From assembly GCA_964448855.1 (NCBI GenBank), contig CAYUXI010000003.1, positions 32,976-96,975 of the forward strand: a DNA stretch of 64,000 bases. The letters run 5' to 3'. This document shows positions 4,933 to 36,140 of the stretch, piece after piece. The DNA is from an uncultured Oscillospiraceae bacterium (lineage in GTDB: Bacteria > Bacillota > Clostridia > Oscillospirales > QAMX01). Both the position numbers and the translations under genes were made by a program. Each line of letters opens with the position of its first letter. Within the stretch, counting starts at the first letter, position 1. The notes beneath the pieces were generated by a model. The model was not told the origin of the DNA and searched no databases. It worked only from the letters and a program-made list of their open reading frames with translations.

Positions 4933-5103
4933 ATGAACAAATCGTCAAAACGTATCAAGAAACAACAAAAAATGCAGTCGCCGCCACTCGGCAAAACGTT
5001 GGAAATCAACGAGATCGACCACAAGGATTCGTCACAGACACCGCAGCGGACAGACCGCGCAGTCGAATCCTCGTATGAGTGGACACGCTTTACGCAGCTG
5101 TAA
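4933..5103 (+). CDS. small basic hypothetical protein (56 aa)
   Basis: GAGGGG ribosome-binding site 6 nt before the ATG. Sequence: MNKSSKRIKKQQKMQSPPLGKTLEINEIDHKDSSQTPQRTDRAVESSYEWTRFTQL. A 13-bp hairpin follows immediately. Below the ORF-track cutoff, and no homology recognised. Confidence 0.4.
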   Translation: MNKSSKRIKKQQKMQSPPLGKTLEINEIDHKDSSQTPQRTDRAVESSYEWTRFTQL

Positions 5104-5109
5104 CAGCCA

Positions 5110-5138
5110 GACAACCTCCGGAGCCTCCGGAGGTTGTC
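5110..5138 (+). terminator. stem-loop downstream of small ORF (possible terminator)
   Basis: Perfect 13-bp stem GACAACCTCCGGA/TCCGGAGGTTGTC with a 3-nt loop. The downstream T-tract is weak (CTCGTTTGTG). Confidence 0.45.
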
Positions 5139-5178
5139 CTCGTTTGTGCCAAAACATGAAAAAAACCACACGGAGCTC

Positions 5179-5207
5179 TTGACAAAAATGGCAAAACGTG
5201 CTATACT
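5179..5207 (+). promoter_or_regulatory. sigma-A-like promoter of the peptide-maturation operon
   Basis: TTGACA, a 17-nt spacer, then TATACT. It lies about 210 nt upstream of the ATG at 5415. Confidence 0.55.
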
Positions 5208-5228
5208 GATTTCAAACAAAGAAACAGA

Positions 5229-5240
5229 GCGAACGTTCGC
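5229..5240. promoter_or_regulatory. 12-bp perfect palindrome just downstream of the promoter (candidate operator)
   Basis: GCGAACGTTCGC is its own reverse complement. It sits about 15-25 nt after the predicted transcription start. Confidence 0.3.
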
Positions 5241-5264
5241 AATTCGAATGATTTCCATAAATAA

Positions 5265-5282
5265 ATATATATATATATATAT
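5265..5282. repeat. (AT)9 dinucleotide microsatellite in the operon leader
   Basis: Eighteen nt of uninterrupted ATATAT, read directly from the sequence. Confidence 0.9.
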
Positions 5283-5414
5283 TTACATGATTTGCATATA
5301 CCAGCGCGCAAAACCAGACGTAAAATCCTGAATTTTGAAAAAACTGCGGTTCGTGAGCGCGGCGACTGATTCGCCACACCGATTGCCCGCGTCTCCGCAA
5401 ATGAGGAGGACGTT

Positions 5415-6812
5415 ATGAATCGCGACGATATCTATTTTGGAACCATTGAACAGCAGGATTCGTTCTTTCTGTCCATCTGCTCGGATGCAAAACGCGCCTA
5501 TTCTTTTTTTCTTGCCGGTACGACACCGTATGGCAAAACGTGGGTTGCCAATAACCATGTCAATCTTCGTGTTGCCTTAGACGCATACCATCATTCGGAA
5601 AAACCGGAAATCAACCTGAGAATGGTTTCCTCTCTGATGGATTCGACCCGCCTGATCGATGCGGTGCGCATTCCGAAACATACAGATTTTCTCAATGACC
5701 CGACGACCGCAGCTGCTTTCCTACGTGAACAGCTGATGGCCGGCAAGGCCGTTGTCTGCGAGCTCGATATGTTTGAGCTGCCGCATAACGAATATACCGG
5801 AAAAGAACATGAGCCACACCGAACGCTGCTGTACGGCATGAATCCAGCAGATGATACGGTGTGTCTTTTTGCATTGGTCTCACAGAACCGGCACACATTT
5901 TCCAACTTTGAAATGCCACTGGAAAAGGTGAGCCGCGCCTTGACGGCGGAATGCTGCATGGACACATCAGATCTTCAGGTCTGTACCCTGAATAACCTCC
6001 CGGAGTATCGGCTGGATCCTGAACTAATCGCGACTCAGCTCCGCTATTTTCTCTCAGGCCAGGATATCAATGCCCAGCTGGAGCTGTTTTTTGACCGTGT
6101 CCCGGATGAAATCCTGAACCGCTCACTGCGCAATACCTATACCAGTGAACAGTTCGTTTTCGGCCTCGACTGCTATACCTGGCTGGCCAAACGACTGCGG
6201 AAAATGGATCATTATCTCCCACTGCTGACATCCCTGCAATCCATTCGGGAACACTTCCAGTGCGCACTCCTTCGCATTTCGGAACTGAACAATGCGGGCT
6301 TCCTGCCTGAGTCTGCGGCTGAGGAGCTGAACAATGGCTACTCTGAGCTGCTTGCTACCACGAAAATCATCCAGATGATGAACATCAAATACAAATTCCA
6401 GCTCGCTGAGCCGGGTCGCCATATGCCGGATCTCCTTTACCGCATCGCTGATCAGCTGGAACAGATCGCAGAAACAGAAAAGCACCTGACATTGCAATTG
6501 CTGGCCTGCCTGACAGAAGCATCTGACACAGCCCCCAATTGCACCCGGTCGAATGAGCGCCCCTGCAAAGCGTCGGTACCTGCTGCGGAGAAAACGATCC
6601 AGGCGGCCTATCAGGACTATGTCCCGTCCCGATACAACCTCCTTCAGCCGGTGGATGATCGCGTTGTTGCGGTCAATACCCTGTGTGGCTCCTTCCTCTC
6701 GCTGAATCCGGACGGAGAAGCCGCCACATGGCTCCGGAAAGGGCTGAAAAACGTCCCGAAAAATCCAATGGCTGATCGTCTCATTGAGCGGGGCTACTTC
6801 GTCCGGAGCTAG
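5415..6812 (+). CDS. unassigned ~400-aa domain fused to an rSAM/SPASM-maturase-type N-terminal (peptide-binding, RRE-like) segment; ends at in-frame TAG
   Basis: AGGAGG ribosome-binding site. The C-terminal 62 aa (PSRYNLLQPVDDRVVAVNTLCGSFLSLNPDGEAATWL...LIERGYFVRS) look like the usual start of SPASM peptide maturases. The same frame continues past TAG 6810-6812 into the rSAM core. Confidence 0.7.
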   Translation: MNRDDIYFGTIEQQDSFFLSICSDAKRAYSFFLAGTTPYGKTWVANNHVNLRVALDAYHHSEKPEINLRMVSSLMDSTRLIDAVRIPKHTDFLNDPTTAAAFLREQLMAGKAVVCELDMFELPHNEYTGKEHEPHRTLLYGMNPADDTVCLFALVSQNRHTFSNFEMPLEKVSRALTAECCMDTSDLQVCTLNNLPEYRLDPELIATQLRYFLSGQDINAQLELFFDRVPDEILNRSLRNTYTSEQFVFGLDCYTWLAKRLRKMDHYLPLLTSLQSIREHFQCALLRISELNNAGFLPESAAEELNNGYSELLATTKIIQMMNIKYKFQLAEPGRHMPDLLYRIADQLEQIAETEKHLTLQLLACLTEASDTAPNCTRSNERPCKASVPAAEKTIQAAYQDYVPSRYNLLQPVDDRVVAVNTLCGSFLSLNPDGEAATWLRKGLKNVPKNPMADRLIERGYFVRS

Positions 6813-6869
6813 GCCAATGAACAGGCTCTGGCCTGCGAACAATGGCAGAGCAGCAGCAACCAGACCAGC

Positions 6870-7955
6870 GTGCTTCGCCTAATTCTGCTGCCGACAGAAG
6901 GCTGCAATTTCCGCTGCCTCTATTGCTATGAAAACCACCAACCGACCAGAATGTCTGATGAAACGGTTTCTGACATCCTGACGTTTGTCCGACAGAATAT
7001 CCATAACTATGCGGCACTTCGCATCTCGTGGTTCGGCGGTGAGCCGCTGCTCTTCATGGACTTGATCGAACACCTCTCCACCGAACTGATCGATATCTGC
7101 CGCAGGGAACGCCGCCTGTATATTTCCGATATCACGACAAACGGTTACCTGCTGACGCCTGAGATCATGAAAAAGCTGCTGCGTCTGCGTGTTCTCTCGT
7201 ATCAGGTCACGGTGGATGGCTCTGCCGCCATTCATGATCGAAACAGACCGCTGGCCAACGGCGAAGGAACCTACGATACCATCACGAAAAATATTCGCAA
7301 AATCCGCCGGGAAGTCAAAACAGGAACGTTCCAATTCCTCATCCGTGTCAATTTCACACGGGAAAGTCTCGAAGAATTTGACAGCTTCTCTGCCGAATTG
7401 CAACGGCTGCTCGCCGGTGACAAACGGTTTCATTTGCTATTCCGCCCGGCCGGAGACTGGGGTGGCCAGATCGATGAGCGTATCCGCTGCTCCCTTGTGA
7501 CGGAAAAGAGCGAACAGGTGCTCGAACGGATGCTCCGGAAAAATTCAAACCTCGACCTCCGAGAACATCTCGATTTCCTGCTGCCCTGCGGCTACCTCTG
7601 CTATGCCTCATGCGCCTCAGCCTTCGTGATTGACCCGCAGGGAATCGTCCGCAAATGTACCTGTCACCTGGAATCCGATGCCAACTGCATCGGAAAGCTC
7701 GAAAACGGCAAACTCCTGCTGGATCGGTATGCGGCAGCTCAGTGGAGCCTGGCATCGGTCGCTCCGTCAGAAACCTGCAAACAGTGCGTGATGTTCCCGG
7801 TCTGCGGAATGTCGGCGTGCCCGGCCAATCGAATTGTTCTGAAAAAACCAGAGGATGATTCGGGCTATGAAAACTGCCCGCTGGAATCGAAACTCCTCCC
7901 GCAGCTGATCGCGGCGATGGAACGGAAACATGATTTCGAAAGGATGGACGGATAA
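6870..7955 (+). CDS. radical SAM / SPASM-domain peptide-modifying enzyme core
   Basis: CNFRCLYCY (CxxxCxxC) lies 11 aa after the GTG start given by the track. The C-terminus has SPASM-type Cys clusters (CYASCASAFVIDPQGIVRKCTC, CKQCVMFPVCGMSACP). There is no ribosome-binding site before 6870, and the ORF is in the same frame as 5415-6812. Confidence 0.85.
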   Translation: MLRLILLPTEGCNFRCLYCYENHQPTRMSDETVSDILTFVRQNIHNYAALRISWFGGEPLLFMDLIEHLSTELIDICRRERRLYISDITTNGYLLTPEIMKKLLRLRVLSYQVTVDGSAAIHDRNRPLANGEGTYDTITKNIRKIRREVKTGTFQFLIRVNFTRESLEEFDSFSAELQRLLAGDKRFHLLFRPAGDWGGQIDERIRCSLVTEKSEQVLERMLRKNSNLDLREHLDFLLPCGYLCYASCASAFVIDPQGIVRKCTCHLESDANCIGKLENGKLLLDRYAAAQWSLASVAPSETCKQCVMFPVCGMSACPANRIVLKKPEDDSGYENCPLESKLLPQLIAAMERKHDFERMDG

Positions 7956-8014
7956 CCATGAAGAAAGAAGTTCTGGATGGCATTCTGAATGCGTTGGAAT
8001 AGGCGGTTTCAGAC

Positions 8015-8443
8015 GTGGATGATATCGTCAAAACGGTTCGCAAGGGCAAAGATGTTGATCTCCGCAACGTGATCATTGACTCCTTTCAGTTTATTTCTTT
8101 TATAATGGACGTGGAGGATCAGCTGAACATCGAAGTTCCGGACGAACTGCTGGTATATGATCATTTTGCCTCTCTACTTGGCTTTGCGGAGCTGATGAGC
8201 ACCGTCAAAGAAGAGTACGAAGAAGAGTACGAAGAAGAGTACGAAGAAGACGAAGAAGAGTACGACGAAGACGAAGAAGACGAAGAAGAAGACGAAGAAG
8301 ACGAAAAAGACGAAGAGGAAGACGAAGAGGAAGACGAAGAGGAAGACGAAGAGGAAGACGACGAAGAAGACGAAGAGGAAGAAACAGAGCTGAAAGTGCT
8401 TGATCGAACCATGCGTGGTCCGTGGTCAGGCTTTTTAAGATAA
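8015..8443 (+). CDS. acyl-carrier-protein-related protein with polyacidic C-terminal tail (probable true start ATG 7958, interrupted by TAG 8000-8002)
   Basis: ACP-like helix-2 region NVIIDSFQFISFIMDVEDQLNIEVPDELL with the Ser of a DS motif. The in-frame upstream stretch MKKEVLDGILNALE-TAG-AVSD reads like ACP helix 1. The tail is 58 residues of Asp/Glu apart from 4 Tyr and 1 Lys. Confidence 0.7.
   Translation: MDDIVKTVRKGKDVDLRNVIIDSFQFISFIMDVEDQLNIEVPDELLVYDHFASLLGFAELMSTVKEEYEEEYEEEYEEDEEEYDEDEEDEEEDEEDEKDEEEDEEEDEEEDEEEDDEEDEEEETELKVLDRTMRGPWSGFLR
8207..8383 (+). repeat. GAA/GAG/GAC triplet-repeat region encoding the polyacidic tail
   Basis: Tandem GAAGAGTAC x3, then reiterated GAAGAGGAAGAC / GAAGAAGAC units. 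The region is coding. Confidence 0.85.
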
Positions 8444-8461
8444 ATGAAGGGAGGCGAAATC

Positions 8462-8608
8462 ATGAAGCAGCTGAAAAAACTGGTCAAGCCGTCCAAAAAG
8501 GCGGCAAACGCCATCGTGACACTGTATGTCAATGAAAACCAGTGTGGCGATCCGTGTGGTGCCAGCAAATGCACCAATGAATCACAGTGCGGCAAACGTT
8601 GCACCTGA
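8462..8608 (+). CDS. Cys-rich precursor-peptide candidate (48 aa)
   Basis: GGGAGG ribosome-binding site (8449-8454) 7 nt before the ATG. Sequence: MKQLKKLVKPSKKAANAIVTLYVNENQCGDPCGASKCTNESQCGKRCT, ending in TGA. It has a Lys-rich leader-like half and a core with five Cys. It sits between the ACP-like and protease genes and is absent from the ORF track (<60 aa). Confidence 0.75.
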   Translation: MKQLKKLVKPSKKAANAIVTLYVNENQCGDPCGASKCTNESQCGKRCT

Positions 8609-8641
8609 TGCCGCAACAGAAGCGTTGAAACGGGGTCAGCT

Positions 8642-10408
8642 ATGAATGTTCGAATTTGGATTGTGGACAGCGGCGGAGCGCCGGGCGCAGAAAACAGCCG
8701 GGTCTTCCGCAACGGTTCACTGTACCCGGATGAAGTAGGGGATCGCTTCGGCCATGGAACCGCAGTCAGCGGGATCATTGGCTCCGGCGCCCCAACAGCA
8801 GAACTCACCCATGTTCGCCTGGTGAATCAGGAAGCGCAAGCCACGGCCGATGAGCTGACGGCACTGCTGGTATACATGGATGCCCATGCAGATGTCGATC
8901 TGATTCATATGAGCCTTGGTGTCACGGGCGGTGACCTGCAAGCCCTGCATACGGCCTGTGTGCGCCTTGCGGAAAAGGGTGTCATTCTGGTTGCTGCATT
9001 TGATAACGGCGGTGCCATCTCCTATCCGGCTGCATTCCCGGAGGTCATTGGCGTGAGTTCCAACCCGGCCTGCAGGCGCAAAGATGCCTTCCGCTTCTGT
9101 GATGACAGCGTGTTGAATCTGCTTGCACACGGAAATGTGCAGCGCGTCCGTTGGACGGAACCGAAATACCTGCTGATCACCGGCAACAGCTTTGCCGTAG
9201 CACACGTCACTGCGTGGGCGGCCAACGAAATGTCCAGGTCGAATCATCGCCTCACCCGAGCGGACCTTCTGGAACGCTTCCGGAAAGCCGCACGGGATGT
9301 GGTATCCTTCGGCTCGGAACCGCTTCCGCAAAAGCTCCCGTTTGAAATTCGTCGGGCTGTGCTGTTCCCGTTCAACAAAGAAATGCACGCACTGATCCGC
9401 TTTCGTGATCTGCTGCCATTTGAAATCGTCGGGGTCTATGAGGGGCGTTATGCCGCCACCATAGGCACTTCGGTATCGCAGCTTGTCGGTACATCAGGCG
9501 CAGAAGATCTGATGATCCGAAAGCTCAGCGACTGCGATTTCGACAGCTTTGACACGGCGGTCATCGGTCACTGCGGTGAGCTGGCCAGACTGGTGAATCC
9601 ATCGCTCATGACGGCCTGGATCCGCCGCCTGGCGGCACACGGAAAGAACATCTATTCCTTTGATGATCTGTCCGACCTGCTGCCGGGTTTCTCCTATGAA
9701 CGCTGGTTTTATCCGCATATTAAGCGGTCTGATCTCCCGCCGGATCGCTGTGGGAAGCTGTTCCGAATTCAAACGCCGGTGCTCGGCGTTTTTGGAACCA
9801 GCTCCAAACAGGGGAAATTTACGTTGCAGTTGGCACTTCGAAAATGGCTGATAGCAGAAGGCTATCGCGTCGGGCAAATCGGAACGGAACCAACCGCTCT
9901 ACTGTTCGGCATGGAACGCTGCTATCCCATGGGATATGCCTCGTCGGTCGAAGTGTCCGGCACGGATGCCGTGCGTTGGTTGAATCATGCGATGAACGAT
10001 ATCTCAGAAGACAAAGATATTCTGATCGTTGGCTCACAATCAGGTACCATTCCGTTCAGCTGCGACAATACCGCGTATTTCTGCTTCCCTCAGCAGGAAT
10101 TCCTGCTGGGCACGCAGCCGGATGCCATCCTCCTGTGCATCAATCCATATGATGAACCGGATTATATCGGCAAAACCATCCAAATGCTGGAAGCAGCAGA
10201 CGCAACAGTCATTGGATTGGCTGTCTTTCCAATGACCTTTCAATCTGAACTCAATCTGCTTGGAAAACGCAGATTGACACAAGAAGAGGAGACGCACCTG
10301 CTGCAACTTTTACGACAGCAGTTTGATCTTCCGGCCTGGATTGTTCGGGATCCGGCCGATGTCGAAGAAATTGCAGACTGTGTCATCCACTTTTTTACAA
10401 CCTGTTAA
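8642..10408 (+). CDS. S8 (subtilisin-like) serine peptidase fused to a DUF1611/DgcN-like C-terminal domain
   Basis: Asp/His/Ser triad contexts IWIVDSGG, GHGTAVSG and GNSFAVAHV, plus AAFDNGG. The C-terminal half shows VFGTSSKQGKFTLQL, ILIVGSQSGTIPF and LLGTQPDAILLCINPYD, which parallel the DUF1611 motifs (GTDxxxGK, EGQG, GxxPDaxxL) as I recall them. Confidence 0.8.
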   Translation: MNVRIWIVDSGGAPGAENSRVFRNGSLYPDEVGDRFGHGTAVSGIIGSGAPTAELTHVRLVNQEAQATADELTALLVYMDAHADVDLIHMSLGVTGGDLQALHTACVRLAEKGVILVAAFDNGGAISYPAAFPEVIGVSSNPACRRKDAFRFCDDSVLNLLAHGNVQRVRWTEPKYLLITGNSFAVAHVTAWAANEMSRSNHRLTRADLLERFRKAARDVVSFGSEPLPQKLPFEIRRAVLFPFNKEMHALIRFRDLLPFEIVGVYEGRYAATIGTSVSQLVGTSGAEDLMIRKLSDCDFDSFDTAVIGHCGELARLVNPSLMTAWIRRLAAHGKNIYSFDDLSDLLPGFSYERWFYPHIKRSDLPPDRCGKLFRIQTPVLGVFGTSSKQGKFTLQLALRKWLIAEGYRVGQIGTEPTALLFGMERCYPMGYASSVEVSGTDAVRWLNHAMNDISEDKDILIVGSQSGTIPFSCDNTAYFCFPQQEFLLGTQPDAILLCINPYDEPDYIGKTIQMLEAADATVIGLAVFPMTFQSELNLLGKRRLTQEEETHLLQLLRQQFDLPAWIVRDPADVEEIADCVIHFFTTC

Positions 10409-10421
10409 TGGAGGGATCATC

Positions 10422-11102
10422 ATGAAAAGGAAACCGTTCAGCGGTATCAGCGAAACCTTGTCCTTTATGTTCTCCTTTATCTGGAAGCATCAAAAATCCT
10501 TTTTCCTCTGGAATACGGTTCAAAATCTGGTCGTTCCGGGGACAAACCTCGCAGAGGTCTGGCTGTCCAAGCTGGTGATGGACGAAATTTTTTCCGAAAC
10601 CCGGACAGTTGAAAGGATTGCATTCTACGTTGGATTGATGCTGCTCTGCTACCTGGTGCGCAATTGCGTCCGTGAGCTGACCTATACGTTGATTAGTAAC
10701 AATCGAACCATCCTCTACCACCGGTTCCGCCAGATGATGATTAGCACCGTCTGTGAAGCGGACTATGAGCTGTTGGAAACGCCGGTCACGCACGAACTGA
10801 AAGAAAATGCGGAGCAGGTGGCATATGGGGACGGCGCCGGCTTCTGTGCCATTGTTCAGGAGCTGTTTTCTCTGAGTGGCAACTTCATCACCCTGGCCGG
10901 TATCACAGCGATTATTTTCACGTTGAACCCGCTGTTTGTCCTGTTGCTGCTGGCGCTGATTTTTGTAAACTCCATGGTTCGCAATCAATGCAACAAGATT
11001 GAATATTCGCTGCGAAAAAATCGAATTCCGATTGAACGGAAATCAAACTATCTGTCGGATATTTCCGAAGGCTTTGAATACGGAAAAGAGGTTCGCCTCT
11101 GA
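10422..11102 (+). CDS. ABC exporter, N-terminal transmembrane part (ends at in-frame TGA 11100-11102)
   Basis: GGAGGG ribosome-binding site plus ATG 10422 (MKRKPFSGISETLSFMF). TM helices typical of type-I ABC exporter membrane domains. The frame continues after the TGA. Confidence 0.75.
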   Translation: MKRKPFSGISETLSFMFSFIWKHQKSFFLWNTVQNLVVPGTNLAEVWLSKLVMDEIFSETRTVERIAFYVGLMLLCYLVRNCVRELTYTLISNNRTILYHRFRQMMISTVCEADYELLETPVTHELKENAEQVAYGDGAGFCAIVQELFSLSGNFITLAGITAIIFTLNPLFVLLLLALIFVNSMVRNQCNKIEYSLRKNRIPIERKSNYLSDISEGFEYGKEVRL

Positions 11103-11156
11103 AACCTGAAAAATTTCATCATTGAGAGACTGGAAAAGCATGATGCGGTAGCTGAA

Positions 11157-12239
11157 ATGTTTTACCGGAGGAGCACCCGGGTCAGCGACCGTGCCAGCTA
11201 TCTCTCCTATATCACATCACTGATTCAGCAGGGCGCCTCCTATTCCTACCTGGTCTTTCTGGTCTTCACGGAAGGCATGACCATCGGTTCGTTCACCATG
11301 TACATGAGCGCCCTCAACAAGTTCAACGGCGTCTTCAATTCGTTCTTCAGCGCCTACACCGAGATGGCAAACTCGAAGCTCTATTTCCAGGATCTACAGA
11401 ACTTCCTGAACCTGAAACGCCGCGCTGATGACTCGGGCTCGGAAAAACCACAGTTGAAACAGGACACCGTCATTTCCTTCTCGCACGTCTCCTTCCATTA
11501 CCCCGGAACCGACCGCGACGTCCTCCACGATGTCACCCTCGATTTCAAGATCGGCGAAAAGGTTGCGCTCGTAGGTGCCAATGGCGCGGGCAAGTCCACC
11601 TTTATCAAGCTGCTTGTGCGTCTGTATGACCCGACGGAGGGTGAAATCCTGCTGAACGGCAAAAACATCAAAGAGTATGACTACAACGAGTACCTGAACC
11701 TGTTTGCACCGGTATTCCAGGATTTCAAACTGTTTGCATTCACACTGCGCGAAAATCTGGCGCTGACCGGCGAATACGATGATGAGCGCATGGAGAAAAT
11801 CGTCCGTCAGGTCGGACTGGATTCGCGCTTTGCGGAACACGGTCTGGACACCATCCTGTACAAAGAGTACGATGAAAGCGGGACGGAGCTGTCCGGCGGC
11901 GAAGCACAGCGCCTGGCGATTGCCCGTGCGCTGTACCGCAATAGCCCGATGGTTGTTCTGGATGAGCCCACCGCCGCACTCGACCCGCTGGCGGAATATA
12001 ATATCTACCAGATGTTTGGCGATCTGGTCAACGGCAAGACGGCCTTCTTTGTCACACATCGTCTGGGTTCGGTTCGTTTCTGCGACGACATTCTCGTCTT
12101 TGACAACGGACAGGTGGTTGCCCGCGGTACACACAGCGAACTCATGAAGAAGAATGACATTTATGCGGAAATGTTCACCAAACAGTCCGATATGTACAAG
12201 GAACTTGAATCCCAGCAGCCGGCAGAAGCGGCGCTGTAA
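11157..12239 (+). CDS. ABC exporter, C-terminal TMD remainder plus ATP-binding domain (coding sense resumes at 11103, same frame)
   Basis: Walker A GANGAGKST, signature LSGGEAQRLAIARAL and Walker B VVLDEPTAALD. There is no ribosome-binding site before ATG 11157. Confidence 0.85.
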   Translation: MFYRRSTRVSDRASYLSYITSLIQQGASYSYLVFLVFTEGMTIGSFTMYMSALNKFNGVFNSFFSAYTEMANSKLYFQDLQNFLNLKRRADDSGSEKPQLKQDTVISFSHVSFHYPGTDRDVLHDVTLDFKIGEKVALVGANGAGKSTFIKLLVRLYDPTEGEILLNGKNIKEYDYNEYLNLFAPVFQDFKLFAFTLRENLALTGEYDDERMEKIVRQVGLDSRFAEHGLDTILYKEYDESGTELSGGEAQRLAIARALYRNSPMVVLDEPTAALDPLAEYNIYQMFGDLVNGKTAFFVTHRLGSVRFCDDILVFDNGQVVARGTHSELMKKNDIYAEMFTKQSDMYKELESQQPAEAAL

Positions 12240-12252
12240 CGTTTTTTTGGGT

Positions 12253-12290
12253 TAAAAATGCCCCGGAGATCCAGTCTCCGGGGCATTGCT
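12253..12290. terminator. bidirectional stem-loop terminator between the convergent ABC and permease genes
   Basis: Perfect 12-bp stem ATGCCCCGGAGA/TCTCCGGGGCAT. A T-run follows on the minus strand (TTTTTAACCCAAAAAAA). Confidence 0.7.
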
Positions 12291-12296
12291 GTATGG

Positions 12297-13439
12297 TCAT
12301 CGAACGAGCATCATGATTGCCGTCAGAACGGCGAGAAAGCCGAAGTTGAACGCGGAAAACAGGACAAGGTATCGCCGCGTCTGTCCTGGATTGTGCGCCG
12401 TATATTCGCGGAACGTAATCAGGCTGGCCAGCGACGCAATCAGCGTTCCTGTTCCGCCGATGTTCACGCCGATCAGCAGCTCACGGTAATTGCCCGTGAA
12501 TTGCGATAGCAGAATCGCCGAGGGAACGTTGCTGATGCACTGACAGGAGAGTACGCTGAAAAGCAGGGTATCCTTTTCCAAAAGCGATGCAAACAGCGAT
12601 TGAACGGCGGGAATCCGCGCCATATTGCCGGAAAAGATGAAAAATGCGGCAAAGGTCAGGAGCAGGGGATAATCGACATCCTTCAGGGCTTTTGGATCCG
12701 CAAAAAGCAGCACCAGCGGAATCACAATCAGTCCAATCCAGTAGGGGATGAAGCGGAAAACGATCACAATCGACAGGACAAACAGACAGAGGTACAGCAC
12801 CGTTCGCCGGGCGGGGAGCGCGGAACGCTTGGCTGGAATCTGCATGGCCTCCGGCTTGACAAAAATCCGGCAGCAGAGCGTGATCAGTGCAATGGAAATC
12901 ACAAACGGCAACAGCATGATCATTGTGAATTCGCCGGTCGGAATTGCAAACTTGCCGTACAGATAAAGGTTCTGCGGATTGCCAAACGGTGTCAGCATCC
13001 CGCCGAGGTTTGCAGCGATGTTCTGCATGATAAACGTAAACGCCATGTATTTCTGCATCCCCGAACAGGACAGTACGAAATAGCCGAGCGGCAGGAAGGT
13101 CAACAACGCCATATCGTTGGCAATCAGCATGGAACCGATGAACGTGATGTAGACGAGCGCCAGAATGCAGAACCGGGCGTTTCGGAATCGCCGGACAATC
13201 TGCTCCGCGAGCACATAGAAGAACCGGATGTTTTTCAAAGCGCAGACAACCGCCAGTACACAGAACAGACAGGTCAGCGTCTTCCAGTCAAAATACGTCA
13301 GATAGGTGCGGTCAGGTGGCACGATACAGGACGTGAGCGCAGCGGCCAGAATCGCAATGCAGAGAACCACGTTTTTTCGAACCCAGTGCAGAAGGCGCGT
13401 CGGGAACATGGAAACCGGGTGCAGGGGCGGGTGCGTCAT
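12297..13439 (-). CDS. anion/citrate-transporter-type permease (ArsB/NhaD-CitMHS-like superfamily)
   Basis: Polytopic membrane protein; MLTPFGNPQNLYLY and VNIGGTGTLIASLA resemble this permease superfamily. The ORF track extends to 13631 by reading through tRNA-Thr. ATG 13439 (MTHPPLH) with an AAAGGAAG ribosome-binding site is the plausible start. Confidence 0.7.
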   Translation of the reverse strand: MTHPPLHPVSMFPTRLLHWVRKNVVLCIAILAAALTSCIVPPDRTYLTYFDWKTLTCLFCVLAVVCALKNIRFFYVLAEQIVRRFRNARFCILALVYITFIGSMLIANDMALLTFLPLGYFVLSCSGMQKYMAFTFIMQNIAANLGGMLTPFGNPQNLYLYGKFAIPTGEFTMIMLLPFVISIALITLCCRIFVKPEAMQIPAKRSALPARRTVLYLCLFVLSIVIVFRFIPYWIGLIVIPLVLLFADPKALKDVDYPLLLTFAAFFIFSGNMARIPAVQSLFASLLEKDTLLFSVLSCQCISNVPSAILLSQFTGNYRELLIGVNIGGTGTLIASLASLITFREYTAHNPGQTRRYLVLFSAFNFGFLAVLTAIMMLVR

Positions 13440-13534: not shown

Positions 13535-13610
<76 letters not shown>

Positions 13611-13638
13611 AATTACCCCGCGCTTCTGCACGGAGCGA

Positions 13639-13716
13639 TGGCGACCCGGAAGGGGCTCGAACCCTCGACCTCTAGCGTGACAGACTAGCGTTCTAAACCA
13701 ACTGAACTACCGGGCC
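13639..13716 (-). tRNA. tRNA-Asp (anticodon GUC)
   Basis: Minus strand: GGCCCGGTAGTTCAGTTGGTTTAGAACGCTAGTCTGTCACGCTAGAGGTCGAGGGTTCGAGCCCCTTCCGGGTCGCCA. Anticodon loop CTGTCAC, T-loop GGTTCGAGCC, encoded CCA end. Confidence 0.9.
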
Positions 13717-13852: not shown

Positions 13853-14016
13853 ATCAATCAATGGGGAAAAAGGGGGGATGACAAACGACGCAGAACAAGT
13901 ATGTCGAACAAATTCGCTGTTCAGGCGACCTGAACACGGCTGCCTGGCTGAATCGGATTCCGGCCATTGGCCAGCTGCTCGGCGGGGAAGCGCCGGACTG
14001 AATCCACAAAAAATAG

Positions 14017-14065
14017 AATGCCCGACCCGGTCGGTCAAAGCGCCAAACCGGATCGGGCATTTTTC
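14017..14065. terminator. bidirectional stem-loop terminator
   Basis: AATGCCCGA...TCGGGCATT arms with an inner CCGG/CCGG pairing. TTTTT follows on the plus strand and a T-run follows on the minus strand. It lies directly downstream of the minus-strand gene that ends at 14073. Confidence 0.65.
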
Positions 14066-14072
14066 ATGGCAG

Positions 14073-15482
14073 TCAACGGGGATACCGGACATTCTCACAT
14101 TGCTCGATGGAGATGCGGTTCCAAACGGTGGACAGCTGCCCCTCCGGCAGCTCCGGTACACAAATTCTGCAGCCTTCCAACTGAACCTGCTGCAGGCTCC
14201 AGCGGTTCGCATACGATTCTGCAAACTGCCGCACCAGCAAATCACTGCTCTGCGAGAGCGTCTGAAGACCGCTCTCACCCATGCTGAGGAGGAGACCGCT
14301 CCAATCGCCTTGCACCCGCTCCTGCAGGACATACGGAGATGTCAGGTCGCAATTCCGGACGGTGAGCCGTTCGCAGGAAAGAACACCCCAGAAGATCAGA
14401 TTACTGAACACCGCAGAAACACTTAGCCCATAGCCAAAGCAGTTTTCCATCACAACATCCGAAATCGAAACGCTGCCATCGGCCGCATCCAGGTCGCCGC
14501 ACAACAGCCCGGCAGACTGATAGGGCAGGGTATCCAAATCCGTCCCCACAGCCAGACAAACAGCGGCATTCCGAATCTCTACGTTGGAAATGGCCAACTG
14601 GCTTCCGGGCTGCAGCGCATAGATGCCATCGGAAATCAACAGCCCGCTGCCACACCGCAGGGAACCGACAAATTGCGGCGCCTCATCGCGCAGCAAATTG
14701 CCGCCCAGCCCGTCACAATAGGCCAGCACCGCATCGCGGTCAGCGTCCGCCAGACCGCCGTCAATCACGATATTGCAGAGGCTGTACGAACGGAAAGCGT
14801 CCGGCTCCCCGGTCGGCAACGCAGCACCCAAACGCTGTTCGGAACGGCGGGCAATGATGTTTTCAATGGTAATGTCTCCGTCCGGCAGCCGAAGCGCGAC
14901 GGGGGACAGGCAATCCTCAAAAACGAGGTTGGCGCAGCGGTAGCTGTCGGCGGCAAGCAGCCGGGACGCCTCATCCACGACCGTTTCCGCACTTGCACCC
15001 GCCGCGATGTGATAAAACCCGGGCGCATGATCGGACGAGGCGGTCATCGCCATCAGATTTACGCCGCCCGCATATGCAAGCGGAACGAAAACGCCGTCCG
15101 AAAAATCGAGCGGTGATGCAATGACAACCGTCACCTCTTCTGCAAACGCAGCGCGATCCGCGTTGTATGCTTCGGCAAAGCTGTTCCACTCCGCAGCGGA
15201 GTGGATTTCAGCGTATGCCTTTCGCTGAATCTCCACAGACGGTGCAGAAGAAGCCGGAGCAGAAGTCGCGGCTTCACTTGTGGACGTCGAAACGACGGAA
15301 GCAGACGTGGTCGGTGTGGGTGTCGAGGCGGACGGCACACCACCCCGCTGCTGGGAACACGCGGCAAGCGACAACGCCAGACACCCACACAAAGCAGCAC
15401 AGACCATTTTGGTCACCCTACGGGGTGCTCTTTTGGATGACGAAGGGGGGAACAATCCTGTGTTCGCGGCGAGCAAAGCCAT
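14073..15482 (-). CDS. hypothetical lipoprotein with Ser/Thr-rich linker
   Basis: Signal peptide and lipobox (CGCLALSLAAC-SQQ), with an alternative start at 15407 (MVCAAL). The low-complexity STPTPTTSASVVSTSTSEATSAPASS linker is followed by a repetitive domain of unknown function. Confidence 0.6.
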   Translation of the reverse strand: MALLAANTGLFPPSSSKRAPRRVTKMVCAALCGCLALSLAACSQQRGGVPSASTPTPTTSASVVSTSTSEAATSAPASSAPSVEIQRKAYAEIHSAAEWNSFAEAYNADRAAFAEEVTVVIASPLDFSDGVFVPLAYAGGVNLMAMTASSDHAPGFYHIAAGASAETVVDEASRLLAADSYRCANLVFEDCLSPVALRLPDGDITIENIIARRSEQRLGAALPTGEPDAFRSYSLCNIVIDGGLADADRDAVLAYCDGLGGNLLRDEAPQFVGSLRCGSGLLISDGIYALQPGSQLAISNVEIRNAAVCLAVGTDLDTLPYQSAGLLCGDLDAADGSVSISDVVMENCFGYGLSVSAVFSNLIFWGVLSCERLTVRNCDLTSPYVLQERVQGDWSGLLLSMGESGLQTLSQSSDLLVRQFAESYANRWSLQQVQLEGCRICVPELPEGQLSTVWNRISIEQCENVRYPR

Positions 15483-22988: not shown

Positions 22989-23882
22989 ATGTGGCAAATC
23001 ATCATTGACATTCTCAAAGAAACTGCGCTCGATGGACTGAAAATGCTGCCATTTCTCTTTGGTGCCTATCTGCTGCTCGAATGGGTGGAGCATCGCTCCG
23101 GCGAAAAGCTGCGCCATGCACTCAGCCATTCGGGACGCTATTCCGTCCCGCTCGGTGCGGCGATTGGCCTGATTCCGCAGTGCGGATTTTCTGTCGCAGC
23201 GTCTAACCTCTACGCAGGCCGCCTGGTGACAACCGGGACACTTCTCGCCGTGTTCATCGCGACATCCGACGAAGCCATCCCTGTCATGCTTGCCAGCCCC
23301 GATGGAACCGCGAAAATTCTCCCATTGCTCGGCCTCAAACTCCTCTTCGCCATCCTCGGCGGATATCTGGCGGACAGCCTCTTTTTCCGCCGTCCCAACC
23401 GAAACGACTGCGCAACGGAACACTGCAAGCACGATGACGAACGCGATGAAGCGACACGGGAGCTGTGCGCCCATTGCGGCTGTCAGGGTGGGATTCTCAA
23501 ATCGGCTCTTCACCATACGGCAGAAACGTTTCTCTTCCTGATGATCGTCCTTCTGCTGATCAATACCGCTACAGAGCTGCTCGGCGAGGAACGCCTTTCC
23601 TCCTTCCTGCTGGCGGGAACCGTCTGGTCGCCGATCGTGACGGCGCTCGTTGGCCTGATTCCCAACTGCGCGCCTTCCGTTCTGATCACGGAGCTGTACA
23701 TCAACGGCACGCTGTCGCTTGGTGCCGCGGTGGCGGGGCTCTCGGCCGGTGCCGGTCTCGGCGTCGCCATGCTGTTCCGAATTAACCCGGATAAAAAGCA
23801 AAACCTCCGCATCCTGGCATACCTCTATCTCTTTGCCGTGGTTGTCGGCATGGTGACCGACTGCGTCACCCGCCTGCTGTAG
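22989..23882 (+). CDS. putative 10-TM heavy-metal/arsenic-efflux-type permease (ArsP_2-like)
   Basis: The MWQIIIDILKETALDGLKMLPFLFGAYLLLEWVEH start is typical of this family as I recall it. It has a central Cys/His-rich loop (CATEHCKHDDERDEATRELCAHCGC). Confidence 0.6.
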   Translation: MWQIIIDILKETALDGLKMLPFLFGAYLLLEWVEHRSGEKLRHALSHSGRYSVPLGAAIGLIPQCGFSVAASNLYAGRLVTTGTLLAVFIATSDEAIPVMLASPDGTAKILPLLGLKLLFAILGGYLADSLFFRRPNRNDCATEHCKHDDERDEATRELCAHCGCQGGILKSALHHTAETFLFLMIVLLLINTATELLGEERLSSFLLAGTVWSPIVTALVGLIPNCAPSVLITELYINGTLSLGAAVAGLSAGAGLGVAMLFRINPDKKQNLRILAYLYLFAVVVGMVTDCVTRLL

Positions 23883-30522: not shown

Positions 30523-31902
30523 ATGTTAGACCGTAATCATCATTCGAATCTCCTCGAACAGGACCCGTACCGCTATACCCTGCAGGACGTCGATGAGCCA
30601 GTTCTGTTCCGGGAAATTTACCCGTACACGGAAGTGCCGAAGGTGGTTTTCAACCATCGTCGTGTTGACCTGGCCATGCCGGATGAAATCTGGATTACGG
30701 ATACGACCTTCCGCGACGGACAGCAGTCTCAGGCGCCGTATTCCGTCGAGCAGATGCTCGATCTGTTTGATTTGCTCCATCGGCTGAGCGGCCCGAACGG
30801 AATCATTCGGCAGACCGAATTTTTCGTCTACAGCGAAAAGGATCGGAAGGCCATTGAAAAATGCATGGAGCGCGGCTATCAGTTCCCGGAAATCACGACC
30901 TGGATCCGCGCCACCAAAAAAGACTTCGACCTCGTCAAATCCATCGGAATCCGCGAAACGGGTATCCTCGTTTCCTGCTCCGACTACCATATTTTCAAGA
31001 AGCTCCGGATGTCCCGCAGTGAAGCCATGGGGCATTACCTGTCTGTCATCTCCGATGCACTCGATGCCGGTCTGGTTCCGAGATGCCACTTTGAGGATAT
31101 CACCCGCGCCGACTTCTACGGCTTTGTTGTTCCGTTCGTCAATGCGTTGATGGACATGAGCCGCGACGCCGGTATCCCGGTCAAAATCCGGATCTGCGAC
31201 ACGCTCGGATACGGGATTCCGTATCCCGGTGTGGCACTGCCGCGTAGCGTTCCGGGCATCATCAACGGCCTGCGCCATTACTCCGGCGTTCCGAGTGCTC
31301 AGCTGGAATGGCACGGCCACAACGACTTTTACAAGGCTGTTGCCAATGCGACTACGGCATGGCTCTACGGCGCATCGGCCGTCAACTGCTCGCTCCTTGG
31401 CATCGGCGAACGGACGGGCAATATCCCGCTCGAAGCGATGGTGTTTGAGTATGCCTCGCTGCGCGGCACGACCGACGGCATGGACACCACGGTCATCACG
31501 GAAATTGCCGATTACTTTGAACACAACATGGGCTATTCCATTCCTGGCATGACGCCGTTTGTCGGCCGCTACTTCAACCAGACCCGTGCTGGAATCCATG
31601 CGGACGGCCTGATGAAGGATGAGGAAATCTACAACATCTTCGACACGCGCACCCTGCTGAACCGCAGCGCCGGTGTGGCCATCAACAGCACCTCCGGCCT
31701 GGCCGGTATCGCCTACTGGATCAATGATACCTATGGCCTGACTGGCAGCAAAACCATGGATAAGCACAGCGAGCCGGTTCAGAAAATCAAGGAATGGATT
31801 GATCAGGCTTATGCAGACGGCCGTCAGACCGTCATTTCGGATGAGGAAATGCGGATGCTGATTGACCGGTATGCGCCGGAACTGACGGCAACCGACAGGT
31901 AG
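30523..31902 (+). CDS. HMGL-like synthase (LeuA/NifV/Re-citrate-synthase family)
   Basis: ITDTTFRDGQQ and HGHNDFYKAVANA metal/substrate motifs. About 459 aa from ATG 30523; the ORF-track start at 30337 overlaps the promoter. Confidence 0.75.
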   Translation: MLDRNHHSNLLEQDPYRYTLQDVDEPVLFREIYPYTEVPKVVFNHRRVDLAMPDEIWITDTTFRDGQQSQAPYSVEQMLDLFDLLHRLSGPNGIIRQTEFFVYSEKDRKAIEKCMERGYQFPEITTWIRATKKDFDLVKSIGIRETGILVSCSDYHIFKKLRMSRSEAMGHYLSVISDALDAGLVPRCHFEDITRADFYGFVVPFVNALMDMSRDAGIPVKIRICDTLGYGIPYPGVALPRSVPGIINGLRHYSGVPSAQLEWHGHNDFYKAVANATTAWLYGASAVNCSLLGIGERTGNIPLEAMVFEYASLRGTTDGMDTTVITEIADYFEHNMGYSIPGMTPFVGRYFNQTRAGIHADGLMKDEEIYNIFDTRTLLNRSAGVAINSTSGLAGIAYWINDTYGLTGSKTMDKHSEPVQKIKEWIDQAYADGRQTVISDEEMRMLIDRYAPELTATDR

Positions 31903-34720: not shown

Positions 34721-34756
34721 AAAAAACCTCTGTCTTTTGAAGACAGAGGTTTTTTC
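34721..34756. terminator. bidirectional rho-independent terminator
   Basis: AAAAAACCTCTGTCTT-TTGA-AGACAGAGGTTTTTT. Confidence 0.85.
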
Positions 34757-34769
34757 AGCAATTCCTTGC

Positions 34770-35948: not shown

Positions 35949-36140
35949 CGTACTTCAAATCCTTTCATGATGGTTGATTTCCTTGAACACACTTTATTAT
36001 ACCGCAACTGCGTCCGCTTGTCAAATCACAGAACCCCCATCTGCCAAAATACGCCGAAAAAAATGCTTGCTTTTCAATGGGACATATGGTATACTGAACG
36101 TACCTTTCAGCGTATTCAACCGATCAAGGAGGAATTTTGC

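What the first reader, a model, noticed from the sequence alone, without database searches (positions are those of the whole stretch)
6810..11102. Three in-frame stop codons interrupt three different genes of the cluster (TAG 6810, TAG 8000, TGA 11100), with no frameshifts
In each case protein-like sequence continues in the same frame across the stop, and the downstream piece has no ribosome-binding site of its own.
1. ...LIERGYFVRS-TAG-ANEQALACEQWQSSSNQTSVLRLILLPTEGCNFRCLYCYE. The peptide-binding N-domain and the rSAM core are normally one polypeptide.
2. MKKEVLDGILNALE-TAG-AVSDVDDIVKTVRKG...IIDSFQF. An ACP helix 1 is cut after 14 codons.
3. ...FEYGKEVRL-TGA-NLKNFIIERLEKH. As I recall, this sits within the K-E-(I/V)-R-L-x-x-L stretch common in ABC-exporter membrane domains.

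I saw no comparable interruption in the other genes of the window. Possible explanations are recent nonsense inactivation of an accessory cluster, consensus or assembly error, population polymorphism in a metagenome bin, or conditional read-through/suppression. TAG and TGA clearly terminate other genes here (for example 23880-23882, 31900-31902, 8606-8608), which argues against a global code change.
Basis: seen in the sequence. Interest (0 to 1): 0.7.

Follow-up and report, generated by a model that had tools for sequence, protein, structure and literature searches.

The report
Three nonsense mutations silence a peptide-antibiotic cluster
Three genes of a small peptide-natural-product gene cluster in an uncultured gut-type Clostridia bacterium each carry a genuine, recently acquired stop-codon mutation that relatives lack, so this is ordinary gene inactivation (possibly favoured by selection) and not a new genetic code or a sequencing error.

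Summary
TAG 6810-6812, TAG 8000-8002 and TGA 11100-11102 lie in frame in three genes of one operon: a BtrH_N-like/RRE/radical-SAM-SPASM maturase fusion, an ACP-like protein and an ABC exporter. The same three stops occur in independent metagenome assemblies from at least four accession series, so they are not assembly errors. Orthologous clusters in relatives at 54-98% identity are all intact (846/~145/48/588/605 aa). The closest relatives carry CAG (Gln), TGG (Trp) and TGG (Trp) at these sites. All three stops are therefore derived G:C>A:T transitions, with no frameshifts. TAA, TGA and TAG all end ordinary genes in the window, and no other gene is interrupted. That argues against recoding, Pyl, Sec or general suppression. 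The best explanation is a young, fixed inactivation of a ranthipeptide-like RiPP cluster in one widespread clone. One feature is mildly unusual. Nonsense hits occur at about the neutral rate (3 seen, 3.5 expected) while missense changes remain about 5-fold depleted. A sister lineage also carries two other nonsense mutations, in the maturase and the exporter. This hints at selection for loss, but the statistics are borderline. Interest is low to moderate.

The parts
5179..5207 (+). Sigma-70-type promoter of the cluster: TTGACA (5179-5184), 17-nt spacer, TATACT (5202-5207). It is intact in the stop-bearing clone.
   Evidence: Read from the sequence. Conserved in the alignment with intact relatives.
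5415..7955 (+). Maturase gene encoding a BtrH_N-like N-domain, an RRE-like domain and a radical SAM/SPASM core. It spans 846 codons and is interrupted at codon 466.
   Evidence: Translation. Pfam BtrH_N and Radical_SAM hits. The NCBIfam TIGR04463 profile (positions 1-414) aligns continuously to residues 407-822 of the intact orthologue P0130. Intact orthologues of 846/845/817 aa.
6810..6812 (+). Nonsense mutation Q466* (CAG>TAG, C>T).
   Evidence: The closest relatives L010 and L099 have CAG, L019 and L113 have CAA, and more distant ones have CGG, AAA or Gly. The same TAG is found in L001, L002 and L004. The exact 465-aa product ending at this stop is called on 24 contigs.
7054..7054 (+). Private missense change C547F (TGC>TTC) in the maturase. 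It is present in the window but absent from other members of the stop-bearing clone and from all intact relatives.
   Evidence: The Cys is conserved in P0001-P0004.
7958..8443 (+). ACP-like (PP-binding) protein gene with a long acidic E/D/Y repeat tail. It spans 161 codons and is interrupted at codon 15.
   Evidence: Translation. Pfam PP-binding and NCBIfam ACP hits. Intact orthologues of 124-172 aa.
8000..8002 (+). Nonsense mutation W15* (TGG>TAG, G>A).
   Evidence: TGG is present in L099, L010, L113, L019, L111, L011 and L016, and Ser in L017. The same TAG is found in L001-L004.
8462..8608 (+). Intact precursor peptide gene (48 aa) with a Cys-rich core (QCGDPCGASKCTNESQCGKRCT). It ends in a genuine TGA.
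   Evidence: It is called as a 48-aa gene in all related loci.
8642..10408 (+). Intact gene (588 aa) for a subtilisin-like S8 peptidase fused to a DUF1611 / TIGR04066-like maturation domain.
   Evidence: The identical protein is found on 16 contigs.
10422..12239 (+). ABC exporter gene (membrane domain plus ATPase). It spans 605 codons and is interrupted at codon 227.
   Evidence: Translation. Family hits. Intact 604-605-aa orthologues.
11100..11102 (+). Nonsense mutation W227* (TGG>TGA, G>A), inside the conserved YGK(D/E)(I/V)RL-aromatic motif.
   Evidence: TGG is present in L105, L113, L019, L104, L011 and L016, and Trp in L017. In 116 homologues the column reads Y85, N17, F10, W2, L2. The same TGA is found in L001-L003 and L005-L007.

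Best explanation
The three stops are real, derived point mutations: Q466* in the maturase, W15* in the ACP-like protein and W227* in the ABC exporter. They became fixed in one recent, geographically or sample-wise widespread clone of an uncultured Oscillospiraceae species. They truncate three of the five genes of a ranthipeptide-like radical-SAM RiPP operon. The maturase loses its rSAM/SPASM core, or if re-initiated, its peptide-recognition domain. The carrier protein loses helix 1. The exporter loses TM5-6 and the ATPase. The cluster in this genome is therefore a young pseudogene cluster that no longer makes or exports its peptide. That the mutations exist, are derived and are fixed is shown. 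That function is lost is inferred from domain content. The stops are much younger than the ~2% divergence from the nearest intact strain, because missense constraint on the branch is still strong. Three hits in so short a time, together with two further independent nonsense hits in the same two gene types in a sister lineage, suggest that loss of the cluster was favoured. Possible causes are the cost of production, a non-producer 'cheater' strategy, or a domino effect in which losing one component makes the others harmful. I hold this selection component at only about 35-40%. The confidence given here is for the core claim, genuine inactivating nonsense mutations.
For: Stops and frames.

Reproducibility: identical stops in independent assemblies, and the 465-aa truncated product is indexed in 42 blocks, with 24 contigs read.

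Intact orthologues: single-ORF orthologues at 98, 86, 78 and 54% identity, with whole intact clusters in L011, L016, L017, L019, L099+L105 and L113.

Ancestral codons: CAG, TGG and TGG, all changed by G:C>A:T transitions. This is the dominant mutation class on this branch, 38 of 58 changes.

Branch counts: window lineage 40 syn / 15 missense / 3 nonsense, against 48 / 10 / 0 on the intact sister branch. The neutral expectation for 40 syn is 84 missense and 3.5 nonsense.

Flanking genes: the window-vs-strain-I ratio is similar, 108 syn / 28 nonsyn.

After the stops: the only coding change within the clone is C547F at a conserved Cys.

Sister lineage: W477* (TGG>TGA) in the maturase and K207* (AAA>TAA) in the exporter come from the same sample, with 23 syn / 9 missense / 2 nonsense. 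The two W477* strains differ by 5 syn and 4 missense changes.

Standard code in the window: predicted genes end in TAA 20, TGA 19 and TAG 12, several with ATGA overlaps, and no other gene is interrupted.
Against: Missense constraint on the window branch (omega about 0.18) is barely above that of the intact sister branch (0.10) and of the flanking genes. There is therefore little direct signature of decay. The same pattern would arise if the genes were still functional through read-through.

Promoter, RBS, precursor gene and S8/DUF1611 gene are all intact, and there are no indels.

The nonsense-excess statistics are borderline: a likelihood-ratio p of roughly 0.01-0.06, computed by hand from the counts. 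They are also subject to ascertainment, because the window was flagged for having three stops.

Linkage of the two sister-lineage mutations in one genome is inferred only from their shared sample.

No expression or product data exist.
Confidence: 0.87

Rival explanations
1. Leaky or conditional read-through. The stops are partly suppressed, with UGA read by tRNA-Trp and UAG by near-cognate tRNA-Gln or another tRNA, or by an unseen suppressor tRNA. The cluster would remain functional at a low or regulated level and still be under purifying selection.
For: Missense changes on the stop-bearing branch remain about 5-fold depleted while nonsense changes occur at about the neutral rate. Two of the three ancestral residues, Trp at the TGA and Gln at one TAG, are what near-cognate misreading is known to insert (general knowledge, not tested here). 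Regulatory signals and the other genes are intact.
Against: None of the stops is conserved in any orthologue. The second TAG replaces Trp, not Gln, so no single suppressor restores all three. No other in-frame stop occurs in about 50 further genes of the window, although about 30 would be expected if nonsense were generally neutral on this branch; I extrapolated that figure from the rates. Intact sister branches have 0 nonsense against about 4 expected under neutrality. The window's only tRNAs are Thr-GGT and Asp-GTC. There is no notable RNA structure after the TAGs and only a weak one after the TGA. Three serial low-efficiency read-throughs would leave very little pathway output.
Confidence: 0.07
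2. Pure neutral decay with no selection for loss. This is a variant of the best explanation that differs only in cause. The cluster simply became dispensable, and three nonsense mutations accumulated by chance.
For: If the whole branch were neutral, 3.5 nonsense changes would be expected and 3 are seen. All three belong to the commonest mutation class. The S8/DUF1611 gene shows more missense changes on this branch (7 missense / 8 syn, against 1 / 11 on the sister branch).
Against: The branch as a whole is clearly not neutral: 15 missense changes against 84 expected. The implied neutral fraction of about 9-15% predicts 0.3-0.5 nonsense changes. No indels have accumulated. An independent lineage shows the same multi-hit pattern.
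Confidence: 0.4
3. Sequencing, consensus or assembly artefact, or a mixed-population consensus in a metagenome bin.
For: The source is evidently a metagenome-derived genome, and repeats in the ACP tail do break assemblies.
Against: Identical stop codons with identical flanks occur in contigs assembled independently from at least four accession series and by two pipelines. Substitution-only errors at three specific codons are not a known artefact.
Confidence: 0.01
4. Programmed recoding or an altered genetic code: pyrrolysine at TAG, selenocysteine at TGA, TGA=Trp (code 4), or TAG=Gln as in some phages.
For: The TGA replaces Trp and one TAG replaces Gln, which superficially match codes known elsewhere.
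Against: The other TAG replaces Trp. Orthologues use ordinary sense codons at variable or aromatic positions (Q/R/K/G; W/S; W/Y/F/N). TGA and TAG terminate 19 and 12 predicted genes in the window, including ATGA overlaps and complete-domain proteins. No tRNA-Pyl, tRNA-Sec or SECIS family was found in the window.
Confidence: 0.01

Closest known systems
Natural loss-of-function alleles of bacteriocin loci, e.g. blpA transporter mutations in Streptococcus pneumoniae that create 'cheater' non-producers (PMC3171984, title and abstract)
   Same: A peptide-export ABC transporter of a bacteriocin-type locus is disrupted by small mutations in part of the natural population. Other strains keep an intact locus. 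Null alleles are widespread and recurrent.
   Different: Here the lesions are nonsense substitutions, not frameshifts or repeat insertions. They hit three genes at once: maturase, carrier protein and exporter. The organism is an uncultured Oscillospiraceae. No phenotype, immunity function or social behaviour has been shown.
Ordinary young pseudogenes formed by nonsense mutation in bacterial accessory genes
   Same: The stops are derived relative to intact orthologues. They arose by G:C>A:T transitions, the commonest bacterial mutation class. They are fixed in a clone, and the truncated products lack essential domains.
   Different: There are three independent hits in one 6.8-kb operon within a short branch, with no indels and little accompanying missense decay. 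A sister lineage shows parallel double hits.
Radical SAM/SPASM Cys-rich RiPP (ranthipeptide-like) systems such as TIGR04463, CcpM/TIGR04068 with TIGR04066, and PapB
   Same: The operon has an RRE + rSAM/SPASM maturase, a short Cys-rich precursor, a TIGR04066-like maturation domain, an ACP-related protein and an ABC exporter.
   Different: All NCBIfam scores are far below the curated cut-offs (e.g. 200 vs 525 for TIGR04463, 99 vs 500 for CcpM, 83 vs 200 for TIGR04066). The maturase carries an extra ~400-aa BtrH_N-like N-domain. The protease and the DUF1611 domain are fused. The product chemistry is unknown.
Stop-codon recoding systems (Pyl, Sec, code 4/25, phage TAG>Gln)
   Same: Only the superficial appearance of in-frame TAG/TGA within good coding sequence.
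   Different: There is no conservation of the stops, no recoding signals, and all three stop codons are used normally in neighbouring genes.

Membership tests
Pseudogene by nonsense mutation | The stop is derived: close orthologues carry a sense codon and an uninterrupted ORF | tested here: met
   CAG/CAA, TGG and TGG in relatives, which encode intact 846/124-172/605-aa proteins.
Pseudogene by nonsense mutation | The stop is real in the organism's DNA, not an assembly artefact | tested here: met
   Identical stops in independently assembled contigs from several run series. Raw reads were not examined.
Pseudogene by nonsense mutation | Truncated products lack parts needed for function | tested here: met
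   The 465-aa fragment lacks the whole rSAM/SPASM core. The ATG-6951 fragment lacks CX3CX2C. The ABC fragments separate TM1-4 from TM5-6 plus the NBD. Loss of function itself is inferred.
Pseudogene by nonsense mutation | Relaxed selection after the inactivating event | tested here: inconclusive
   Window branch omega is 0.18 against 0.10 (Fisher p=0.06). The S8 gene has 7 missense / 8 syn against 1 / 11. The one post-stop change in the clone is C547F. The W477* strains differ by 4 missense / 5 syn. Numbers are small.
Pyrrolysine recoding (TAG) | TAG conserved at the position in orthologues, with pylT/pylSBCD present | tested here: not met
   Orthologues have Gln/Arg/Lys/Gly and Trp/Ser. No tRNA-Pyl in the window. 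The whole genome is not available.
Selenocysteine recoding (TGA) | Sec/Cys at the homologous position and a SECIS hairpin just downstream | tested here: not met
   The column reads Trp/Tyr/Phe/Asn. There is no Rfam SECIS hit. Only a weak hairpin starts 30 nt downstream (z -2.2), and the surrounding sequence is nearly unchanged in intact TGG alleles.
Alternative genetic code (TGA=Trp/Gly, TAG=Gln) | The reassigned codon is not used as a terminator and occurs in frame throughout the genes | tested here: not met
   19 TGA and 12 TAG terminators among 51 predicted genes, with ATGA overlaps. No other in-frame stop.
Programmed translational read-through | Stop and context conserved among orthologues, with a stimulatory signal | tested here: not met
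   The stops are confined to one clone. There is no significant structure after the TAGs.
TIGR04463 / CcpM-type rSAM-SPASM Cys-rich peptide maturation systems (for the cluster itself) | Maturase scores above the curated family cut-off | tested here: not met
   Best scores are 199.7 bits vs cut-off 525 (TIGR04463) and 99 vs 500 (CcpM). The cluster is related to this family but is not a member.
Bacteriocin-locus 'cheater' polymorphism (blpA-like) | Null strains retain immunity or benefit and coexist with producers; phenotype demonstrated | not testable with these tools
   Only the genetic pattern is seen: recurrent null alleles alongside intact alleles within run series SRR229232xx.

The most novel reading that the evidence does not exclude
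The stops are not dead ends. The clone keeps the cluster under purifying selection and expresses it only when stop-codon read-through is raised, for example by UGA>Trp and UAG>Gln near-cognate decoding under stress or by a mobile-element-encoded suppressor tRNA. The nonsense codons would then act as a triple conditional lock on a costly or self-toxic peptide pathway.
Probability: 0.04. Interest if true: 0.75.

Novelty: new member of a known kind. Interest (0 to 1): 0.3.

Why it matters
The result rules out an exotic genetic code, Pyl or Sec use, and an assembly error. It shows the region to be a freshly inactivated natural-product cluster. This has a practical consequence for genome mining. 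The cluster in this genome should be annotated as pseudogenes, and the intact alleles (e.g. L113, L019, L099+L105) are the ones to use for heterologous expression. On the biological side, the multi-hit, substitution-only and parallel inactivation is a small natural example of possible selection against peptide production in an uncultured gut-type anaerobe. The same two functions, maturase and exporter, are hit in two lineages while intact alleles persist. The pattern could be tested as a producer/non-producer polymorphism.

Tried and rejected
1. tRNA and Rfam scans of the window for suppressor, Pyl or Sec tRNAs or SECIS elements found only tRNA-Thr(GGT) and tRNA-Asp(GTC).
2. RNA folding downstream of each stop gave no signal at the TAGs and a weak, non-SECIS-like hairpin after the TGA.
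3. I searched for intermediate genotypes carrying only one or two of the three stops among all members of the 90% protein clusters and found none. All close intact alleles form a sister group.
4. An exact-pattern scan of JGI metagenome contigs across site 3, intended to give allele counts, returned 0 hits.
5. I checked whether the window-specific missense changes in the intact S8/DUF1611 gene hit conserved residues. Most are conservative changes at variable columns. A186V lies next to the catalytic-Ser motif and R402W at a variable site, so the check is not decisive.
6. A deaminase-type sequence context for the three transitions was considered and dropped. Read from the sequence, the contexts are CC, CC and TC, which is not consistent.
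7. A-to-I mRNA editing (UAG/UGA>UGG) was considered and dropped. No TadA-like UACG loop motif is present, and editing would give Trp at the Gln site.
8. A literature search on ranthipeptide, ACP and subtilisin clusters produced nothing specific to this architecture.
9. Promoter or RBS damage as an additional inactivating lesion was not seen.
Full report
**Observation.** I read window 5000-13000 and translated the three frames. TAG 6810-6812 is codon 466 of an 846-codon frame (5415-7955). TAG 8000-8002 is codon 15 of a 161-codon frame (7958-8443). TGA 11100-11102 is codon 227 of a 605-codon frame (10422-12239). After each stop the first in-frame start lies well downstream: GTG 6870 and ATG 6951, GTG 8015, and ATG 11157. 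ATG 6951 lies beyond the CX3CX2C radical-SAM motif at 6903-6926.

**What the genes are.** The operon runs from a near-consensus promoter (TTGACA 5179-5184, 17-nt spacer, TATACT 5202-5207) and a GAGGAGG ribosome-binding site. It encodes five products.
- A fusion of a ~400-aa BtrH_N-like domain, an RRE-like domain and a radical SAM/SPASM core.
- An ACP-like (PP-binding) protein with a long acidic tail.
- A 48-aa Cys-rich precursor (8462-8608).
- A subtilisin-like S8 peptidase fused to a DUF1611/TIGR04066-like domain (8642-10408).
- An ABC exporter.

In an intact orthologue, the TIGR04463 maturase profile aligns continuously from profile position 1 at residue 407 to residue 822. Codon 466 therefore lies inside one polypeptide. 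All family scores are far below the curated cut-offs. The cluster is a relative of the ranthipeptide-type Cys-rich peptide systems, not a member of any curated family.

**The stops are not an artefact.** An exact look-up of the intact S8 protein returned contigs from ENA assemblies ERZ27271040/42/53/66 and Logan assemblies of SRR6824189, SRR17704065/75/81 and SRR17244094. These are 99.4-100% identical to the window. Every contig that covers a site has the same stop codon with the same flanks. The 465-aa truncated product is indexed in 42 blocks of the collection, and 24 contigs were read. Within this clone the only differences in the cluster region (window 5104-12239) are the length of an (AT)n tract, the length of the acidic repeat, and one missense change, C547F at 7054. 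C547F is private to the window and to part of the clone.

**The stops are derived.** A homologue search with the read-through maturase found full-length proteins of 846, 846, 845 and 817 aa at 98, 86, 78 and 54% identity. Their contigs carry complete, uninterrupted clusters. So does the closest species representative in the genome collection, an uncultured Oscillospiraceae MAG at 93% nucleotide identity with conserved flanks. The closest intact strain I could assemble comes from one sample (L099+L105, SRR14160763; 97.4-98.2% identity). It has CAG, TGG and TGG at the three sites. The mutations are therefore Q466* (C>T), W15* (G>A) and W227* (G>A). All are G:C>A:T transitions, the class that makes up 38 of the 58 changes on this branch. 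Site 1 is a variable position (Q/R/K/G). Site 2 is Trp in close relatives and Ser at 54% identity. Site 3 is the aromatic position of the conserved YGK(D/E)(I/V)RL-x motif; in 116 homologues the column reads Y85, N17, F10, W2, L2. None of these patterns suggests a special residue.

**Genetic code.** A codon-usage-based gene map of the window gives 51 genes ending in TAA (20), TGA (19) and TAG (12). Several TGA stops overlap the next ATG. Same-frame neighbouring ORFs elsewhere are separate, domain-complete genes, for example HMGL-like | TAG 31900 | GntR/FCD. The window contains only tRNA-Thr(GGT) and tRNA-Asp(GTC) and no other Rfam family. The RNA downstream of the TAGs is unstructured (z -0.4 and +0.2). 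After the TGA there is only a weak hairpin starting 30 nt away (z -2.2). The flanking sequence is nearly unchanged in intact TGG alleles. Recoding, Pyl, Sec and general suppression are therefore not supported.

**Timing and selection.** I polarised changes with L019 as outgroup. The window branch has 40 synonymous, 15 missense and 3 nonsense changes. The intact sister branch has 48, 10 and 0. Using mutation-type rates estimated from the synonymous changes, neutrality predicts 2.1 missense and 0.088 nonsense changes per synonymous change. For 40 synonymous changes that is 84 missense and 3.5 nonsense. Missense omega is thus 0.18, against 0.10 on the sister branch, while nonsense changes occur at about the neutral rate. 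Flanking genes show a comparable nonsyn/syn ratio between the same two strains (28/108). The stops must therefore be young relative to the ~2% divergence.

The implied neutral fraction of the branch is about 9-15% and would yield only 0.3-0.5 nonsense changes. My hand-computed likelihood-ratio test on these counts gives p of about 0.01, or about 0.06 if the first hit is treated as the trigger. This is suggestive only. It also carries an ascertainment bias, because the window was chosen for having three stops.

**Independent replication.** The 90% protein clusters contain other truncated members. In a sister lineage, whose intact forms are L113 and L019, the maturase carries W477* (TGG>TGA) 11 codons downstream of the window's stop. 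This allele is present in two samples. The exporter carries K207* (AAA>TAA). One W477* contig (L111) and the K207* contig (L104) come from the same sample, SRR22923251. Relative to the intact form this lineage shows 23 synonymous, 9 missense and 2 nonsense changes, the same pattern again. The two W477* strains differ by 5 synonymous and 4 missense changes in the maturase, which is compatible with relaxed constraint after the stop. That the two sister-lineage mutations share one genome is an inference from their shared sample.

**Interpretation.** The best-supported reading is ordinary but recent gene inactivation: a young pseudogenised RiPP cluster fixed in one successful clone. Function loss is inferred from what the fragments lack. 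The multi-hit, substitution-only pattern and its parallel in a sister lineage hint that losing the pathway is favoured. A plausible route is that loss of one component, such as the exporter, makes the others costly or harmful. The closest documented analogue is the pneumococcal blpA transporter polymorphism that splits populations into producers and cheaters (PMC3171984, found). No phenotype is known here.

The main rival for the selection component is chance accumulation under simple dispensability. The main rival for the inactivation claim is leaky read-through that keeps the genes useful. That would explain the retained missense constraint. It is contradicted by four observations:
- the stops are confined to this cluster;
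- no stop is conserved in any orthologue;
- a single suppressor cannot restore both Gln and Trp at TAG;
- intact lineages carry no nonsense changes.

**What did not help.**
- No intermediate genotype with only one or two stops was found.
- A JGI metagenome pattern scan gave no hits.
- Conservation analysis of the window-specific missense changes in the intact S8 gene was not decisive.
- The promoter and RBS are undamaged.

**Verdict.** The phenomenon is of a known kind, and interest is low to moderate.

Noticed in passing
window 5265-5282: An (AT)9 dinucleotide tract lies in the 5' leader between the cluster promoter and the maturase start. Its length varies even within the near-clonal stop-bearing population (+2 in L001, -4 in L002/L004) and between lineages. 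The window clone also has an extra ATAAATAA just upstream. It may be a slippage-prone regulatory spacer.
   Followed up: partly
window 8190-8400: The ACP-like protein ends in a long Glu/Asp/Tyr-rich repeat encoded by GAAGAA/GACGAA repeats. Its length and composition differ in every strain, and short-read assemblies break there (many contigs end in it). This is an unusual appendage for a carrier protein.
   Followed up: partly
window 5415-6600 (N-terminal ~400 codons of the maturase gene): A BtrH_N-like (papain-fold/peptidase-like) domain is fused N-terminally to an RRE + rSAM/SPASM maturase. Among the 8000 word-sharing candidates scored from the 5.8-billion-protein collection, only four full-length 90%-identity clusters of this fusion were found, so the architecture looks rare and is uncharacterised.
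   Followed up: partly
window 6084-6086 (maturase codon 224): Codon 224 is Leu, Trp, Arg or Cys in otherwise 98-99% identical strains. It is a strikingly hypervariable single codon in a conserved protein.
   Followed up: no
L103 4325-4327, L111 2245-2247 and L104 2609-2611: A sister lineage carries independent nonsense alleles of the same cluster: maturase W477* (TGG>TGA) in two samples and exporter K207* (AAA>TAA). One of each comes from sample SRR22923251.
   Followed up: yes
window 7054: G>T gives C547F at a Cys conserved in all orthologues (GGEPLLCMD). It is present in the window but not in several other contigs of the same stop-bearing clone, so it arose after the stops.
   Followed up: yes
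window 14012-15427 (ORF 14073-15482, minus strand, 469 aa): This ORF has no confident family hit and is only 83% identical to the L019 relative, where the flanks are 93-94% identical. It is a locally fast-evolving gene next to tRNA-Thr/tRNA-Asp (13535-13716).
   Followed up: no
window 5230-5239: A perfect palindrome, CGAACGTTCG, lies just downstream of the cluster promoter. Its AACGTTCG core is conserved in all lineages. It is a candidate operator for an unidentified regulator.
   Followed up: no
window 34737-37259 and 37302-38396: Two adjacent same-frame genes both encode right-handed beta-helix (pectate-lyase-like/NosD) proteins. They are tandem paralogues separated by a genuine TAA and not an interrupted gene.
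   Followed up: partly
window 4933-5103: A conserved 56-aa Lys/Gln-rich ORF with no family hit lies just upstream of the cluster promoter. It is called in every related locus. Its role, whether regulator, second peptide or unrelated, is unknown.
   Followed up: no
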